A stretch of DNA of 64,000 bases from a virus (lineage: Duplodnaviria; Caudoviricetes). Below are positions 39,717 through 46,346 of the stretch, piece after piece (positions within the stretch are counted from its first letter, which is position 1; each line of letters begins with the position of its first letter). The notes below the pieces were generated by a model. The model was not told the origin of the DNA and did no database searches. It saw only the letters and a list, made by a program, of their open reading frames with translations. The position numbers and the translations under genes are program-made. The stretch covers positions 1-64,000 of IMG/VR virus record IMGVR_UViG_3300032038_000053. The stretch is one strand, 5' to 3'.

Positions 39717-39771
39717 ATGGGCTAACATAGAAAAATTACAACGAAGGTGATACTCTATTGTTCATAGAGTA

Positions 39772-40007
39772 TCGACCGTCGAGGGATGCTTCGTCCTCCG
39801 CAAACCGTCTGTCATTTCACGTCCGGCTGATCAAGCTACACGTTCAACGTGAATACACAGTGCATCTGACCTATCCTAATTCGTAGACTATTCAACTTCT
39901 ACCGGATACACGACACTTGGAGCTACCGCGTGTTGGAATTCAGCCTCCTCATTGCTCGAGCTCACATGCCTATTCATGTGGTATTTTTATGATTCAGCTT
40001 CGGTCGA
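39772..40007 (-). ncRNA. Candidate ~236-nt structured ncRNA of unknown class
   Basis: GC-richer than flanks; terminal helix UCGACCG/CGGUCGA; several internal helices; lies between tRNAs; no ORF. Confidence 0.55.
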
Positions 40008-40278: not shown

Positions 40279-40320
40279 AAATGTATCTATTAGTATATAA
40301 AATAAATTAAGAAAATAAAA

Positions 40321-40350
40321 AAATAACCGGAGATTTCTCTCCGGTTATTT
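40321..40350 (-). terminator. Terminator closing the RAMP gene + repeat array transcript
   Basis: AAATAACCGGAGA-TTTC-TCTCCGGTTATTT perfect 13-bp stem; T-run follows on the minus strand. Confidence 0.7.
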
Positions 40351-40357
40351 CGGTTAA

Positions 40358-41151
40358 ATACGTGACGTAACTGAACTTAACCATGCTATACCAATGCATC
40401 ACTGTACATACCATGCTATGCCATAACTGTACCTCACGAAGCTCAGCTATACCTTCACATTACAGTATCAGGCTTTGCTAAACTCAGCTGTACCAGTACC
40501 ATACATCACCCATCATAACTCAACCAAGCTTAACCATTGCTCAACCATACTTGACTGCGCATCACCATGACACCACTCAACCAAACTCAGCTTTACCTTT
40601 GCCAAACACAGCATGACTAAACTCAATAATGCAGTACATTACCAATACAATACACACTTCACATTACGTTACCATATACTACTTTACTAAGCCATTGCTT
40701 TACGATACTTCGATTTCCGATGCTATACCATTACTGAACTAAGCCTGACTTCACGGTGCATCATCTCACATCGCCATGCCATTACCCTACGTTACTAAAC
40801 TACACCAAGCATTACTATGCCATTGCGATACACTACCCAGCTTTACCTTTGCTAAACACAGCATGACTAAACTACATAATGCAGTACCGTTACCAATACC
40901 ATACCATGCTTCACACTACTTTACCAAACCATTGCTTTACCACATACTACTTTACTAAGCCATTGCGGCACCAAACATAGCATTACTATACCATTGCAAT
41001 ACATGACTAAACCAAACTAGACCTTTCACCACGTTACCTTGCCTTGACATAACTCAACCTAACTTTACCTTGACTTAGCCTTGCTTCACTTTGCATTACA
41101 CTACAAAACCAATACTATGCCAAACTACACTAGCAGAGCTACGCCATACCA
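40358..41151 (-). repeat. Non-coding array with 5-nt periodicity (NGY-NN pentamers), segmented into ~20 units by GY-AWWG-GY junctions; putative guide-RNA array
   Basis: Plus strand shows RC every 5 nt; about 21 junctions RC-CWWT-RC with spacings mostly 26/31/36/41/46/51 nt; begins at the stop codon of the RAMP gene. Confidence 0.85.
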
Positions 41152-41796
41152 TCACTTGATGTGCTTGGAATAGTTACCACCAATCACAGCATCGTCATTT
41201 TCTTCGTCGAGGAGTTCCCAAACGAATTTTCCTTTACCGGAGTTTCTCCATTGACCTGTGCCATGATAGTAACCATAATCCAACCATTCTTCAATGAGTT
41301 TCTCGTCGGAATCAACCATCAGATGAATAGTGAATGTTGAATTGCTCATAGCAGGAATTGTTTCAGAGCAAGCAAGCGAGACACGCTCTCCCTGAGGTGT
41401 CTGCGCACGGAGTGGTCTCTGGCAGAGTGTAATCTCGCCACTCGGTTCAATAACACACTGACGTTCATTGATGAAGATGAGTCCATCAATCTGCTTCTTG
41501 AATGCCTTGACCTTGGAAGTAGCAGTGCCAGGAATCTTACGCATAAACGAAGCAGTTTCCTTGAAATAACCCTTCCACTGATAGTCGTAGAGGAACGGCT
41601 TTCCATCTTCAGTGCGAGGGAATACCGTTGTGCCCTTTTCGAGGGTTTCGTCAATACCAACAGCAGCGATTTCATCTTCGATTGTTGCTGCGTCTTCGGA
41701 CTTTGATGCGATGAAATCCTTATAGATTTCCTTGGAGTTAGGAGCAGTACCGAGGAGCTCCTCAATAAATGTTACACGGATTTTCATGTCTTTCAT
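41152..41796 (-). CDS. Solo Cas7/Csf2-like RAMP protein (214 aa)
   Basis: N-terminal strand with LLGTAP, YDYQWKGYFKE helix, CQRPLRA...SETIP, Gly-rich loop GTGQWRNSGKGKF. Confidence 0.78.
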   Translation of the reverse strand: MKDMKIRVTFIEELLGTAPNSKEIYKDFIASKSEDAATIEDEIAAVGIDETLEKGTTVFPRTEDGKPFLYDYQWKGYFKETASFMRKIPGTATSKVKAFKKQIDGLIFINERQCVIEPSGEITLCQRPLRAQTPQGERVSLACSETIPAMSNSTFTIHLMVDSDEKLIEEWLDYGYYHGTGQWRNSGKGKFVWELLDEENDDAVIGGNYSKHIK

Positions 41797-41903
41797 AATT
41801 AATCTTTCCTTTCTTAATTGGGCTATGATTCGGATATTCGGACTATATTAAACAGGGATAGTGAATTGTATTTCCCTGGAACTAAATATGATATTTGTGA
41901 TAT

Positions 41904-41919
41904 CATATTAATAGTACAT
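41904..41919 (-). promoter_or_regulatory. Putative early promoter for the RAMP gene/array
   Basis: ATGTACTATTAATATG, identical to 39455-39470. Confidence 0.55.
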
Positions 41920-41963
41920 ATATGAAAAATATAAAAATACAAATTTTGTATGGTAACCGGAAA

Positions 41964-42614
41964 TTACAGTTTGAAACGATCTTCCAAAGATTCACGTTGA
42001 CAGTACTCAATCACATATGGTATTAAATCAACATGTGTTTCACAATAATGATCAATAAAATAATCGATATACGAAACAGGTATCTGCTTGATACAATCGA
42101 ATTTGTTTTGTTCTACAGATTCTTTGATTAACGGGATAATTACCTTTTCAATATAAAGAGTTGTACGTGAACTCTCCGGATCAAAATGTTCAAACCAATC
42201 TAATGTACACTCTGGAATCTCACCACGTTCCACAAACCATTTGATCAAATGCTCCCGCATGGGATCTTCCAGTCTTCCATATTGCAAAAACACTTGTGTG
42301 GTCACGACAATATCATACAATTCACGTGGTGTAATAAAATCCGATGTTTCAATTCCATGAAACTCAAATTCAAATCTCTTTTTCCATTTCGGGAGATGCA
42401 TTAATTGATCTTCTAAATCAATCATCATGTGAATCAGTGAGAAATAAATATCACCACTAGGAGTATGTTGATATGTCCCATCATTACTAATACAGGTTTT
42501 CATTGAAACATGATTGATCATTTGTTCATACATTTGTACTTTGTGATTGATCAATCCCATTCCATCGGGTATACATTTACTGGTTTCCGGACTCAAGAAG
42601 TCGTACATAATCAT
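41964..42614 (-). CDS. Hypothetical protein (216 aa)
   Basis: RBS GAAAGGAAG; no recognisable motif. Confidence 0.7.
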   Translation of the reverse strand: MIMYDFLSPETSKCIPDGMGLINHKVQMYEQMINHVSMKTCISNDGTYQHTPSGDIYFSLIHMMIDLEDQLMHLPKWKKRFEFEFHGIETSDFITPRELYDIVVTTQVFLQYGRLEDPMREHLIKWFVERGEIPECTLDWFEHFDPESSRTTLYIEKVIIPLIKESVEQNKFDCIKQIPVSYIDYFIDHYCETHVDLIPYVIEYCQRESLEDRFKL

Positions 42615-42741
42615 TTCTTCCTTTCGTTTAAAAGTAATTTAACGTGATGAAACAATAAAGAATTAAATTTGATTGGGGCCAATGGCCCCAATCACAATTC
42701 AGTATAGGAAGTAATGTACCATATGAGCAGTTAGGTACAAT

Positions 42742-43091: not shown

Positions 43092-43229
43092 TTTCTGAGA
43101 ATATTGGCAACTGGAATACCAATTTAATGATTTTAGATGCCAAACTGGTAAAAGCATCATGCATCAGACGTTGAATGGAGCGATGCTATGTATGTGAAAA
43201 AGAAGTAGCCAGTTGCTCTGCATCAGAAA
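43092..43229 (-). ncRNA. Y-RNA-like element 5
   Basis: UUUCUGA-UGCAG-AGCAACUGG-CUACUUC ... CCAGUUGC-CAAUAUUC-UCAGAAA. Confidence 0.65.
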
Positions 43230-43287
43230 TTATAAAAACATATTCTAGTTCGAGAGGGTTTGAATATGCGTTTATCGTATTTAATAG

Positions 43288-43881
43288 TTACCAAGTAAAT
43301 GCGTAACCAAGACCGTTCTTGAGATCAGAACGAAGGGGATCTGCAAATGTTGCCTTGTTTTCCAGACCGTTTACAGTAACAATTGCAAACTTCTGTGTTG
43401 GTTCAGCTGTTACAGGTGTTACTTTTGCAGCAAAGATGTAATTAGTACCCTTCACTACCTGAGTACCTAACAGAGCAAACGGCTCAACCTTAGAACCAAC
43501 AAAGCCTTCGAAAGTCTTATCGAATACAGTCTTTGCATCTTCGGAGATTTCAGTCTTGACATCAACAACTGTTCCACCAAGACCAGTACCACCTTCAACA
43601 ACTCTTTCGATATTGACAATTGCAAAGTCGTTGCCCTTTTCATTGAGAATTACCAGAACAACATTCTTGGTATCTCTACCAGTGATAACAACTTGTTCTG
43701 CGAGAATGGCATGATTTGTACCATTCACAACCTGAGAACCAAGATAAGCAATTGGTGTATACTGAGCACCAAGCAGCTCACCAAGCTTTTCAGTAAATGC
43801 GGAAGAAACTGTAGCAACCTTCTGTGGCATTGAGCCTGTTGTCATATCGACAATCTCGACATTCCATGTACCTACTGACAT
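43288..43881 (-). CDS. Tandem cystatin-like domain protein
   Basis: Two internal repeats with PxAxLGxQVVxGTN[HY] (cystatin QxVxG); no signal peptide. Confidence 0.65.
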   Translation of the reverse strand: MSVGTWNVEIVDMTTGSMPQKVATVSSAFTEKLGELLGAQYTPIAYLGSQVVNGTNHAILAEQVVITGRDTKNVVLVILNEKGNDFAIVNIERVVEGGTGLGGTVVDVKTEISEDAKTVFDKTFEGFVGSKVEPFALLGTQVVKGTNYIFAAKVTPVTAEPTQKFAIVTVNGLENKATFADPLRSDLKNGLGYAFTW

Positions 43882-43916
43882 ATGAATCATCTCCTAAAAT
43901 AAATAAATTTAATAAA

Positions 43917-43996
43917 GTCTGAGAATAATACAATTGGCGTTAGATGTAACCGAATAAATGTTTCTGTTAGAAGTATCCAATTGTGCTGCATCAGAC
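43917..43996 (-). ncRNA. Y-RNA-like element 4
   Basis: GUCUGA-UGCAG-CACAAUUGG-AUACUUC ... CCAAUUGU-AUUAUUC-UCAGAC. Confidence 0.65.
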
Positions 43997-44005
43997 ATCT
44001 ATTTT

Positions 44006-44096
44006 GAATTCGAGCATTTTGATATCGGTTTGGCTATAGATAGTGTTGGCAACATATAAATCTTTTGAAGTAACCGATAATCCTGCTTCGAAATTC
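44006..44096 (-). ncRNA. Y-RNA-like element 3
   Basis: GAAUUUCGA-AGCAG-GAUUAUCGGUU-ACUUC ... AACCGAUAUC-AAAAUGC-UCGAAUUC. Confidence 0.65.
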
Positions 44097-44106
44097 ATTT
44101 TAAATT

Positions 44107-44196
44107 AACTGAGATGGCCGTATCTCATTCTAGGAGGTCAACCTGATGGACTATGATTATGCGTGTAAGAATATAAATCATCCAACCATCTCAGTT
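44107..44196 (-). ncRNA. Candidate 90-nt structured RNA
   Basis: ~13-bp closing stem AACUGAGAUGGUUG/CGGCCAUCUCAGUU enclosing hairpins. Confidence 0.4.
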
Positions 44197-44199
44197 TGT

Positions 44200-44332
44200 G
44201 GTAGCTGTTTTTTCCTGTCTTTAACGCCCTCTTCGATAAACAGCCAAAACGTCATGCGCCCGTCTTTTCAACTTGCTGGCCACCAAGCGATAGGCCGAAC
44301 CCACATCCTATCCCGTACCCCTCGCAGCTTCC
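44200..44332 (-). ncRNA. Candidate ~133-nt multibranched RNA directly downstream of the TROVE gene
   Basis: GC-rich; closing GGAAGCUG/CAGCUACC plus four internal hairpins. Confidence 0.45.
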
Positions 44333-44358
44333 TTCTAATGATACTTTCTCGCATCACA

Positions 44359-46032
44359 TTATTGTGATGCTTCTATATTATCCCATTGCTTAATGTATTC
44401 GTTTGCAAATGAGATTTCTTTGCCAGTCCAACCAGTCATGATTGCACAACGATAAGCCATGATTGGCATTACAGTATTGTCATAACCAGCTGTCTGAATA
44501 CAAAATACATTCAGCTTTGGATTAATCTTTTTACGATATGTTTGGATTAACTTGTATACATCGATGTGCTGTCTACCGGTAAAACGTGGTCCACATCCAT
44601 ATCCCATCTTTGAATATGCAGCAATATCGGAATGTTCACCATACAATCCACCAGTACCAGCTTGCATATCGGAATAAATAAAGAGATTGTCAATGTGTTC
44701 TTTGTTCTTAATAGCACGCCATAAGTATTTCCAAATACCACCTTCGGTTGCTCCGCCAACATCATCACATTGACCCTTATCAATCTTATGAGCCTGACTC
44801 AGAACACCCTTTCTCTTTGAGATTGGATATGCAATATACCGATCACCAAACTTAACAGCATCCCCTTCATCAGAACAAGCGCATGCCAATACAGCTGACA
44901 GATTGTCAATATTGGCAACACGAACAATTCCATATTCCGATACAAATCTACCCCAAGCAGATCCACTATTATCAGACAGAGCAACTGTTCTACCACTCAG
45001 ATGTGGAAAGTTATCAACGGCAATATCAATGCATTCTTCCAAAGCATCTAAAATCATTTGTTTGTGATTGATCACATCTGTACATTCATCAATCGCTGTA
45101 TAAGCGGATGAATAACGGAACGGGAATTGTTTACCATCTGGAACTCCATCTTTCAGTTTCTGTAAGATACGTTTACAAGTATCCATATCACTGATTTCTT
45201 TGAAGATGTTACGGAGGTTTCTCAATAATGCCATATGACCAATATCAATTGTGTGAAGAATATCAGCCCATGTTGCACCATCGGATCTCAACTGTTCCCA
45301 TGTCTTTTGTTCATTAACCACGTTAACAGTACCAGTCTTCATCAGCTCGTTAATGACTGTTGAATTGGCATGGCATAAACGAACAGTATTGATCATGCCG
45401 ATTTCGAAGTTTTTATATTTGTTAATCTGAACAGGTGATAATGCCTCCAAACGATCTGCCATAGAACGTTTCAAAATAGAAGGCATTTGATTCTTCTTAC
45501 CATCATTCAGCCATAAATAATAAGCAGCTTGCATTGCTGGTTCATCAGGTCTTTTCATTACCTTATATTCTAACTGTCTGAACAAACCAGGATGTGTTTT
45601 GTTGAATTCAGCACGTTTTGGATGAAGTGCTGCACGAACCATGATGACCTGAGGATTCAATCTCATGTAATAAGTATTGCGTAAATGAACTGCCAAACGA
45701 ATTGTCGCTTCATAATCATAATCCAGCGCTTTGTCAATCACATCGGTGAAGAATTCAGTTGCTGTCTTTTTATTGTATTCCGGGAATAATGCATCAGTAA
45801 TCAGATCATCAATCAAATATACGGAATCATGTGAATAATGAAATCCACCACTACTACAATAGAATCCGCCACTACGATAATACTGTGCTTCTCCAAAGAT
45901 GGAAGAAGCTGCAACAAGCTGTAATGTCTGAATGGGATTTAATTTGTAACTAATTCCATTCATAAAGTTTGTTGTAGCACCAAGGGATTCTTCTTTTTTC
46001 TGATTAGAGACTGCTCTTGAAATCTTACTCAT
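44359..46032 (-). CDS. Ro60/Rsr-like TROVE-domain RNA-binding protein with C-terminal vWA domain
   Basis: LAVHLRNTYYMRLNP, KRPDEP, MALLRNLRNI, KQFPFRY, MIDAS-like DNSGS, IYSDMQ. Confidence 0.9.
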   Translation of the reverse strand: MSKISRAVSNQKKEESLGATTNFMNGISYKLNPIQTLQLVAASSIFGEAQYYRSGGFYCSSGGFHYSHDSVYLIDDLITDALFPEYNKKTATEFFTDVIDKALDYDYEATIRLAVHLRNTYYMRLNPQVIMVRAALHPKRAEFNKTHPGLFRQLEYKVMKRPDEPAMQAAYYLWLNDGKKNQMPSILKRSMADRLEALSPVQINKYKNFEIGMINTVRLCHANSTVINELMKTGTVNVVNEQKTWEQLRSDGATWADILHTIDIGHMALLRNLRNIFKEISDMDTCKRILQKLKDGVPDGKQFPFRYSSAYTAIDECTDVINHKQMILDALEECIDIAVDNFPHLSGRTVALSDNSGSAWGRFVSEYGIVRVANIDNLSAVLACACSDEGDAVKFGDRYIAYPISKRKGVLSQAHKIDKGQCDDVGGATEGGIWKYLWRAIKNKEHIDNLFIYSDMQAGTGGLYGEHSDIAAYSKMGYGCGPRFTGRQHIDVYKLIQTYRKKINPKLNVFCIQTAGYDNTVMPIMAYRCAIMTGWTGKEISFANEYIKQWDNIEASQ

Positions 46033-46067
46033 ATGGATATTCCTCCTACATAAATAAATTTATAAAA

Positions 46068-46229
46068 AATTCCGAGAATATTAGAAAGAGTTTTTATGGG
46101 CACTAGAGGCCATCTAGTTTTCGTGGCTAAGTTTTACATGTATATGCCACGTTTACATGGAGCTTTCGGCTCAGAGAAGAGTAAATCCTATTATCTTCTG
46201 AAGTAACTCTTTTCTCTGCTTCGGAATTA
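46068..46229 (-). ncRNA. Y-RNA-like element 2, immediately 5' of the TROVE gene
   Basis: AAUUCCGA-AGCAG-AGAAAAAGAGUU-ACUUC ... AACUCUUUCU-AAUAUUC-UCGGAAUU. Confidence 0.7.
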
Positions 46230-46237
46230 CTGGATAT

Positions 46238-46345
46238 GTGTGAGAATGTTGGACCTGTTTCTTGTAGGACTCGAACCCACATAGTTACCTAAACACAGTA
46301 ATGATTAACCATAAATCGAAGTAACAGAGTCCTCTGCTTCACACA
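46238..46345 (-). ncRNA. Y-RNA-like element 1 with tRNA-like D and T arms
   Basis: UGUGUGA-AGCAG-AGGAC ... GUCC-AACAUUC-UCACACA enclosing GAUU-UAUGGUU-AAUC and GUGGG-UUCGAGU-CCUAC. Confidence 0.75.
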
Positions 46346-46346
46346 T

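What the first reader, a model, noticed from the sequence alone, without database searches (positions are those of the whole stretch)
40321..41919. Solo Cas7/RAMP-like gene coupled to a non-coding array with 5-nt periodicity: candidate RNA-guided system unlike CRISPR
Seen: one transcription unit consisting of an early promoter (41904-41919), a 214-aa RAMP protein with a Gly-rich loop (GTGQWRNSGKGKF), an ~800-nt array starting at the stop codon, and a strong terminator (40321-40350). On the sense strand a GY dinucleotide recurs every 5 nt (NGY-NN, mostly AGY/GGY) with variable bases between. About 21 GY-AWWG-GY junctions shift the phase by +1 and cut the array into units mostly 26, 31, 36, 41, 46 or 51 nt long (5n+1). 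No cas1/2/3/5/6/8/10 and no CRISPR repeats are in the window. Known: class 1 Cas7 polymerises on crRNA with a 6-nt step. Inference: this RAMP polymerises with a 5-nt step, the fixed GY bases are the protein-binding register, the variable dinucleotides form a discontinuous guide, and each unit is one processed guide, plausibly against competing phages or host loci. From memory this resembles the recently reported phage VIPR (RAMP + GGY/NN repeat RNA) architecture; I could not verify that here.
Basis: partly seen in the sequence, partly recalled or inferred. Interest (0 to 1): 0.96.

Follow-up and report, generated by a model that had tools for sequence, protein, structure and literature searches.

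The report
Phage VIPR guide-RNA system
A giant gut phage carries a VIPR system, a CRISPR-like pairing of one small Cas7-like protein with about 25 guide RNAs built from five-letter repeats; it is real and well formed, but this kind of system was already described in 2026 preprints.

Summary
A 214-aa RAMP-fold gene (41152-41796, minus strand) is followed 2 nt after its stop by a 793-nt array of G-Y-N-N-N pentamers (G 94%, Y 97%). One-base register slips cut the array into 25 units, 20 of them 5n+1 nt long, and a strong terminator closes it. The claimed promoter is no better than chance.

Two guides exactly match conserved genes of unrelated phages under the published one-base-skip code: an SbcD-like nuclease and a DNA invertase. 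By hit counts these matches are not statistically secure.

Verdict: a new member of a known kind. This scan has already noted VIPR-type loci on other DNA (179 notes, at least 150 genomes).

The parts
41152..41796 (-). vipr gene: a 214-aa Cas7-like RAMP protein. It has an RRM core, a two-helix bundle (about residues 22-46), a thumb hairpin (about 123-147) and a G-loop (175-190) carrying the invariant Q182-W183-R184.
40357..41149 (-). Staggered vrRNA array of about 155 G-Y-N-N-N pentamers in 25 units. Twenty units are 5n+1 nt long and are separated by one-base (+1) register slips. There are no tails, hairpins or ribozymes between units.
   Evidence: The same architecture occurs in relatives.
40320..40351 (-). 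Intrinsic terminator that closes the gene-plus-array transcription unit.
   Evidence: 14-bp stem, 4-nt loop and T-run.
41797..41963 (-). Upstream intergenic region holding the ribosome-binding site, a presumed but unverified promoter, and a perfect 10-bp inverted repeat (41909-41885).
   Evidence: Sequence read. The promoter scan is not above chance.
40729..40779 (-). Unit 13, with 10 pentamers. It is a candidate guide against the SbcD-like nuclease gene of unrelated large phages.
   Evidence: 20 of 20 guide bases match exactly under the 1-nt-skip rule at one homologous site in 3 IMG/VR contigs. The match is in frame, with the skipped base on the wobble position.
40597..40642 (-). Unit 17, with 9 pentamers. 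It is a candidate guide against the DNA invertase gene of an abundant lineage of ~80-kb gut phages.
   Evidence: 18 of 18 guide bases match at one site in 73 contigs, at codons ~19-27 of a resolvase-family gene. By count of independent sites this is not above chance.
40847..40887 (-). Unit 10, a diverged paralog of unit 17. Both belong to a ~250-nt internal duplication of the array.
   Evidence: Repeat family D3, 76% identity at 250-nt spacing. Its own hits are scattered and look like chance.

Best explanation
This is a VIPR system of a giant gut phage. It consists of one Vipr protein gene and, on the same transcript, a staggered array of about 25 vrRNA guides.

Inferred from the published SUSP1 mechanism: Vipr protomers bind one pentamer each and form a helical filament on the RNA. 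They hold the G and Y of each pentamer through the G-loop W183/R184 and a thumb arginine. The next two bases are exposed to pair with double-stranded DNA, with every third target base skipped, and binding blocks transcription of the bound gene.

Specific to this clade: the first G of the canonical GGY is not conserved. This fits Q182 standing where SUSP1 has the G1-reading D177. Guides are delimited by a one-base register slip after a biased G-Y-A-A-W pentamer, not by structured tails or ribozymes. The slip would stop a filament from continuing in register, so that each unit of 5-10 repeats acts alone.

The likely targets are genes of competing phages. The candidates found here are an SbcD-like nuclease of other large phages and the invertase of an abundant ~80-kb gut phage.

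Shown here: the anatomy, the fold, the conserved gene-array linkage and the exact gapped matches. Inferred: RNA processing, filament formation, DNA binding and silencing.
For: Periodicity and unit structure.

Kinship with genuine Vipr: BLASTP E=0.002 aligning the two G-loops. A co-linear hhalign from thumb to G-loop at E=0.013. The same order of secondary-structure elements. The SUSP1-type model finds the same top-4 BFVD neighbours as our model, including A0A8S5R426, which is 56% identical to our protein, at E=1.5e-8 and TM 0.58.

Conserved linkage: 64 of 80 viral loci have an array at the stop codon and 13 have one upstream, with 687 of 905 units 5n+1 long. 77 of 80 bacterial-genome loci have an adjacent array, with 948 of 1382 units 5n+1 long.

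Substitution rates by pentamer position in related arrays are 0.024 (G), 0.078 (Y), 0.082 and 0.083 (the two guide positions) and 0.123 (fifth position).

The context is a large phage without cas genes.

Published descriptions: staggered arrays with a 1-nt overlap and YNNNG/NNNNG repeats; WGT/NN repeats.

Targets: unit 13 matches 20/20 in frame with the skip on the wobble position, inside the longest conserved block of the gene. Unit 17 matches 18/18 in 73 contigs. Neither match extends past the unit ends. Recombinase targeting has a precedent.
Against: Sequence-level homology to SUSP1 Vipr is marginal: hhalign probability is 3.5%, and the A1 profile does not reach PDB 36pp at E<=10 while it does reach Csm4 and type VII Cas7 G-loops. 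Placement inside the published Vipr clade and the type assignment are therefore untested.

No expression or binding data exist for this clade, and the paper states that staggered arrays were not confirmed by small-RNA sequencing.

Target evidence is weak by counts. Reversed-order controls gave 0 hits at 20 specified bases and 3 at 18. Of three real 20-base guides only one hit. Unit 17 gave 4 independent sites against about 3 expected. No two units converge on one phage.

Units of 5-6 repeats specify only 10-12 bases, which is little for specific targeting.

The guide positions are strongly C-depleted (about 8%), which is unexplained.
Confidence: 0.85

Rival explanations
1. It is a Vipr-like RNP that follows a different code or has a different substrate from SUSP1. 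Examples are reading three variable bases per pentamer, using a different skip length, or binding RNA rather than double-stranded DNA.
For: Three positions per pentamer vary rather than two. In most relatives even the Y position is only about 67% pyrimidine. The closest sequence matches of the G-loop are to RNA-targeting type III and type VII RAMPs.
Against: The fifth position evolves faster (0.123) than the two canonical guide positions (0.082 and 0.083), as expected if it is not used for pairing. The only above-shuffle matches found on the candidate target phages came from the canonical positions with a 1-nt skip; alternative rules gave none. W183 and R184 correspond to the SUSP1 G2 and Y3 readers.
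Confidence: 0.08
2. The array is mainly a decoy or sponge rather than a set of offensive guides. Its RNAs would occupy or redirect the Vipr proteins of competing phages, as satellite-encoded solo vrRNAs do.
For: The third VIPR paper shows solo vrRNAs that redirect a rival's VIPR to decoy sites. Most units here are A/T-rich and of low complexity, and they have no identifiable target.
Against: The array is fused to its own vipr gene in one transcription unit, and this arrangement is conserved in 77 of 80 bacterial-genome loci and seen at the gene's stop in 64 of 80 viral loci. Decoys in the literature are orphan vrRNAs without vipr.
Confidence: 0.04
3. It is a degenerate CRISPR remnant, or a chance tandem repeat sitting next to an unrelated RAMP gene.
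For: The protein fold is that of Cas7, and a relative is annotated 'Cas system-associated RAMP superfamily protein'.
Against: There is no repeat-spacer array and no other cas gene. The lag-5 signal is about 11.7 sd above shuffles. The pairing with the gene and the 5n+1 rule recur in both sets of homologous loci from many taxa (64 of 80 viral loci with an array at the stop, 77 of 80 bacterial-genome loci).
Confidence: 0.01

Closest known systems
VIPR systems with staggered vrRNA arrays (bioRxiv 10.64898/2026.04.26.720920, Fig. S18 legend; YNNNG/NNNNG repeats in its Methods)
   Same: A solo RAMP gene in a phage. A continuous array of pentamer repeats in which successive guides sit at positions overlapping by 1 nt, so that the end of one marks the start of the next. 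The repeat is degenerate at the first G.
   Different: The figure and the locus lists are not held, so I could not check whether this clade is the one shown or which type it belongs to. New here are the G-Y-A-A-W bias at unit ends, the Q-for-D substitution at the G1-reading residue, and the candidate targets.
Type II VIPR of Escherichia phage SUSP1 (Vipr, PDB 36pp; vap1; four vrRNAs)
   Same: A ~20-kDa RAMP with an RRM core, helical bundle, thumb and a G-loop W-R pair. The RNA repeat has a 5-nt period. The system is phage-borne. The candidate targets are read on codon-determining positions, and one of them is a recombinase, as in SUSP1.
   Different: SUSP1 has discrete ~100-nt vrRNAs of 9-16 strict GGYNN repeats, each with a leader and a pseudoknotted 3' tail, plus an accessory gene. 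This locus has 25 tail-less units of 1-10 xGYNN repeats (20 of them in the 5n+1 form) in one 793-nt array and no conserved accessory gene. Sequence similarity is confined to the G-loop.
Non-canonical VIPR-like clusters with WGT/NN or TGH/NN repeats (bioRxiv 10.64898/2026.10.21.760802)
   Same: The same kind of repeat, with the first base of the fixed trinucleotide degenerate, next to a Vipr-like fold.
   Different: That paper describes motifs that repeat about 10 times. It does not describe long staggered arrays or any targets.
Class 1 CRISPR backbone subunits (Csm3/Cmr4, type VII Cas7)
   Different: The step is 5 nt rather than 6 nt. There is no repeat-spacer array, no Cas5, Cas6, Cas10 or Cas1-2, and no match to any curated Cas model. 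Pairing is gapped, two bases out of every five.

Membership tests
VIPR system | Kinship of the protein with an experimentally proven Vipr (SUSP1, PDB 36pp) | tested here: met
   Met at the structural level. The SUSP1-type model hits this family's BFVD member at E=1.5e-8 and TM 0.58 at rank 2, and shares the same top-4 neighbour set. The order of secondary-structure elements is the same. At the sequence level the link is only marginal: BLASTP E=0.002, hhalign E=0.013, and no profile hit to 36pp.
VIPR system | Adjacent tandem pentanucleotide repeats with a conserved GGY-type scaffold alternating with variable NN | tested here: met
   G 94% and Y 97% at fixed positions, with the first G degenerate. 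This variant is listed in the literature as YNNNG and as WGT/NN.
VIPR system | Gene-array association conserved among homologs | tested here: met
   64 of 80 viral loci have an array at the stop codon and 13 have one upstream. 77 of 80 bacterial-genome loci have an adjacent array.
VIPR system | No CRISPR array and no other cas genes; a viral genome context | tested here: met
   Phage replication genes and 7 tRNAs. No PADLOC or NCBIfam Cas hits. No CRISPR-like repeats.
VIPR system | Guides recognise natural targets by the 1-nt-skip (NNx) rule | tested here: inconclusive
   Two exact matches (20/20 and 18/18) in conserved genes of other phages, bounded by the unit ends. Hit counts do not exceed the reversed-order controls or the empirical chance rates.
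VIPR system | vrRNAs are expressed, processed and co-purify with Vipr; the RNP binds double-stranded DNA and represses transcription | not testable with these tools
   This needs small-RNA sequencing, pull-down and reporter assays.
VIPR type II (SUSP1 / P. fulva clade) | Discrete vrRNAs with a conserved structured 3' tail, and a vap1 accessory gene | tested here: not met
   There are no tails or hairpins between units. The flanking genes have no homolog next to vipr in any relative. The locus is therefore not type II. A vap-less locus fits type I by elimination, since the paper assigns vap1-6 to types II-VII, but the published tree could not be consulted.
CRISPR-Cas class 1 | A repeat-spacer array plus a multi-subunit cas operon | tested here: not met

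The most novel reading that the evidence does not exclude
In this very large gut clade, guide boundaries are written purely as a one-base register slip after a G-Y-A-A-W pentamer, with no RNA structure or ribozyme. Filament phasing itself would then punctuate the array. Loss of the G1 reader (D to Q) frees one more base per repeat. The array is a multi-enemy arsenal in which single guides are aimed at the most conserved codons of different rival phages, such as the SbcD nuclease of large phages and the invertase of an abundant ~80-kb gut phage.
Probability: 0.35. Interest if true: 0.6.

Novelty: new member of a known kind. Interest (0 to 1): 0.4.

Why it matters
VIPR is a months-old discovery, and its staggered-array form has not been confirmed experimentally. 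This locus is a clean, compact example, about 1.6 kb from promoter region to terminator, that could be cloned to test how a tail-less array is divided into guides. Its clade is very large: 2087 clusters at 50% identity, found in gut Clostridia, Bacteroidales and Coriobacteriia and their phages. RNA-guided silencing between phages may therefore be common in gut viromes. The two candidate targets give concrete protospacers to test. None of this changes the established picture of VIPR. It extends that picture.

Tried and rejected
1. Pfam, PHROGs, PADLOC and NCBIfam on the protein gave no hits. The genuine SUSP1 Vipr also gave none in PADLOC and NCBIfam.

2. blastn of the locus against phage records gave no match.

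3. A strict GY-phase scan of relatives missed most arrays, because in them the Y position is degenerate. A motif-free lag-5 scan found them.

4. Self-targeting, and targeting of the relatives' flanks, under 8 rules showed no signal above shuffles. The excess seen under period-5 rules was only unmasked array DNA.

5. All units were tested against five complete candidate-target phages. Only units 13 and 17 exceeded their shuffles. Pooling 686 units from relatives added nothing.

6. Unit 5 (20 specified bases) gave 0 IMG/VR hits.

7. Unit 10, the paralog of unit 17, gave 58 hits at 34 distinct sites in unrelated genes, none of them in an invertase.

8. A possible ortholog of unit 13 in the closest relative L002 gave 0 hits.

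9. Matches do not continue into neighbouring units at any junction gap from 0 to 7 nt.

10. Folding the whole array gave z = -1.6, which neither supports nor excludes selection for an unstructured RNA.

11. Rfam found no family and no hammerhead in the array.

13. A global pairwise alignment with SUSP1 Vipr is unreliable outside the G-loop, so I make no claim about the equivalent of H17.

Full report
**Observation**

On the minus strand, an ORF at 41152-41796 encodes a 214-aa protein with the motif GTGQWRNSGKGKF. Two bases after its stop codon a non-coding tract begins and runs to 40357. It is followed by a hairpin with a 14-bp stem and a T-run at 40351-40320.

Sequence identity at lag 5 in this tract is 0.462. 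Shuffles give 0.280 +/- 0.016 and the ORF gives 0.245. The 15 strongest lag-5 windows of the whole 64-kb window all fall within the tract.

A phase-tracking model gives the pentamer G (94%), Y (97%), N, N, N. The three variable positions are A/T-rich and hold only about 8% C. The model finds 25 segments, 20 of them 5n+1 nt long, and each junction is one extra G.

The last pentamer of a unit is biased to G-Y-A-A-W, whereas interior pentamers are much more variable. A ~250-nt internal duplication explains the paralogous units.

Sigma-70-like sites are no more frequent than in shuffles, and that stretch overlaps a perfect 10-bp inverted repeat.

**What it is**

VIPR (Viral Interference Programmable Repeat) systems were described in 2026. 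A small RAMP protein, Vipr, polymerises on vrRNAs made of GGY/NN pentamers. The NN bases pair with double-stranded DNA while every third target base is skipped, and binding represses transcription (bioRxiv 10.64898/2026.04.26.720920 and .720927).

The discovery paper reports seven types. It also reports alternative repeats (NNNGG, YNNNG, NNNNG) and 'staggered arrays', in which individual vrRNAs come from positions overlapping by 1 nt and the end of one marks the start of the next (Fig. S18 legend). That is the 5n+1 architecture seen here. The paper says this form was not among those confirmed by small-RNA sequencing.

A later preprint lists non-canonical VIPR repeats including WGT/NN (10.64898/2026.10.21.760802). 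That is essentially this array's motif.

**Protein**

No curated family matches the protein, and none in PADLOC or NCBIfam matches the genuine SUSP1 Vipr either.

An AlphaFold model built from 30 homologs (pLDDT 81, pTM 0.79) matches only CRISPR RAMPs:
- Foldseek gives 128 PDB hits at E<=1e-3, led by Csm3, type VII Cas7 and Cas7-11.
- A Foldseek-independent search of 48,161 chains returns RAMPs for the top 42 rows.

I fetched phage SUSP1 (KT454805.2) and identified its Vipr as the 195-aa product of L001:28474-29061. Its residues H17, K33, R138, D177, W178 and R179 match the numbering in the structural paper, and PDB 36pp carries this sequence.

Sequence similarity between the two proteins is marginal:
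- BLASTP gives E=0.002 and aligns the two G-loops.
- hhalign gives E=0.013 with a co-linear alignment from thumb to G-loop.
- The family profile does not reach 36pp.

Structure gives the link. A model of a SUSP1-type Vipr (pLDDT 94) has the same order of elements as ours. Searched against all predicted viral structures, it returns the same four top neighbours as our model. One of them, at rank 2 with E=1.5e-8 and TM 0.58, is A0A8S5R426, a protein 56% identical to ours.

In the aligned G-loop, W183 and R184 correspond to the SUSP1 residues that hold G2 and Y3. Q182 stands where D177 reads G1. This fits the loss of the first G in this array. It is an inference, not a test.

**Family**

The protein has thousands of relatives: 5863 within the word-index search and 2087 clusters at 50% identity.
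- Of 80 viral loci, 64 have a lag-5 array starting at the stop codon and 13 have one just upstream. 687 of 905 inner units are 5n+1 long.
- An independent set of 80 loci comes from bacterial genomes, mostly gut Oscillospiraceae, Ruminococcus and Lachnospiraceae, plus Bacteroidales and Coriobacteriia. In that set 77 have an adjacent array, and 948 of 1382 units are 5n+1 long.
- Among related arrays the substitution rate is 0.024 at the G, about 0.08 at the Y and at the two canonical guide positions, and 0.123 at the fifth position. The position equivalent to G1 is thus the least constrained.

**Context**

The window belongs to a large phage with DNA polymerase, an RNA polymerase subunit, NAD-ligase, SbcD, UvsX, a Ro60-like gene, an HNH endonuclease and seven tRNAs. 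There is no cas gene and no CRISPR-like repeat.

The flanking genes have no homolog next to vipr in any relative, so there is no conserved accessory gene. The locus lacks the tails and the vap1 gene of type II. By elimination it fits the vap-less type I, but I could not consult the published tree.

**Targets**

Local tests found no self-target, and no target in the relatives' flanks, under eight rules. The paper likewise reports no self-targeting.

Collection scans used the canonical rule, that is, the two bases after GY with one skipped base between dinucleotides.

Unit 13 (20 specified bases):
- It matches three IMG/VR contigs exactly, all at one homologous site.
- The site spells I-E-D-D-T-E-H-F-S-K in frame, with the skipped base on the wobble position.
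- The gene is an SbcD-like metallophosphoesterase of large phages unrelated to ours.
- The site lies inside the single 30-codon block where codon positions 1-2 are fully conserved between homologs that are 59% identical. Only 7.5% of 10-codon windows in that gene qualify.

Unit 17 (18 specified bases):
- It matches 76 contigs, 73 of them at one site covering codons ~19-27 of a resolvase-family DNA invertase in complete ~80-kb gut phages.
- The match is on the antisense strand, with the skipped base on codon position 1.

Both matches stop exactly at the unit ends. SUSP1 VIPR is known to silence a satellite's recombinase through codon-periodic pairing.

These targets are not statistically secure:
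- Reversed-order controls gave 0 hits at 20 bases and 3 singleton hits at 18 bases. Unit 17 therefore has 4 independent sites where about 3 are expected.
- Two other real 20-base guides gave nothing.
- Unit 10 gave 34 scattered distinct sites, as chance predicts for 16 bases.
- No second unit hits either target phage above its shuffles.

The qualitative features argue for real targets. These are the in-frame wobble skipping, the placement in the most conserved block, a lineage multiplicity of 73 against a maximum of 13 among about 40 chance-like hits, and the precise unit boundaries. They were noticed after the fact. I rate each target at roughly even odds.

**Mechanism**

The most likely mechanism (confidence 0.85) is as follows. 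The gene and the array are transcribed together up to the terminator. Vipr protomers coat each unit, one per pentamer. The one-base slip breaks the register between units, so each unit of 5-10 repeats forms its own filament and is probably cut out at the A/U-rich junction. Each RNP then binds a matching gene of a rival phage by gapped pairing and blocks its transcription. The anatomy, the fold and the conserved linkage are shown here. The remainder is inferred from the SUSP1 work.

**Novelty**

The kind of system, the staggered array and the repeat variant are all published. This scan has also already noted VIPR-type loci many times (179 notes in at least 150 genomes).

What is added here:
- a well-delimited example in a giant gut phage;
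- the boundary-pentamer bias;
- the Q-for-D correlation with the loss of G1;
- the per-position substitution profile;
- two testable candidate protospacers.

Noticed in passing
window 41885-41909 (minus strand): A perfect 10-bp inverted repeat (AATATGATAT, 5-nt spacer, ATATCATATT) lies about 90 nt upstream of the vipr start. It could be an operator or an RNA hairpin.
   Followed up: no
window 42670-42694 (minus strand): A second strong terminator-like hairpin (11-bp stem, 7 G-C pairs) lies upstream of the 216-aa ORF 41964-42614. That ORF has no match in any library, so it and vipr could share one transcription unit.
   Followed up: partly
L002:1801-3425 and L002:4601-5125: The closest relative of this phage, a 155.7-kb IMG/VR contig whose Vipr is 71% identical, has a ~1.6-kb pentamer array upstream of its vipr gene as well as a ~0.5-kb array downstream. 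That is about twice the guide load seen here.
   Followed up: partly
L003-L081 and L261-L340 arrays: In most relatives the second pentamer position is only about 65-75% pyrimidine and the consensus pentamer is G-C-A-A-N. Only the single G is then strongly fixed (the NNNNG type). How the Y3 pocket accommodates A in those proteins is unexplained.
   Followed up: partly
window 40357-41149 (minus strand): The three variable positions of the pentamers hold only about 8% C, although the phage is about 40% G+C. Either guides with C are selected against, perhaps to avoid pairing with the many Gs, or the targets are biased. The whole-array fold energy did not settle this (z = -1.6).
   Followed up: partly
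G004-G008 (IMG/VR ~80-90 kb contigs, e.g. L188:11129-11716): An abundant lineage of complete ~80-kb gut phages, one with direct terminal repeats, carries a 196-aa resolvase-type DNA invertase. Its 5' end is conserved at all 18 bases read by unit 17 in 73 contigs; this conservation is by ascertainment, since only exact matches were retrieved.
   Followed up: partly
window 43093-46346 and 39749-40007: A Ro60/TROVE gene (44359-46032) with neighbouring small RNAs, and an unassigned structured stretch inside the tRNA cluster, lie next to the VIPR locus. Earlier notes of this scan cover them.
   Followed up: no
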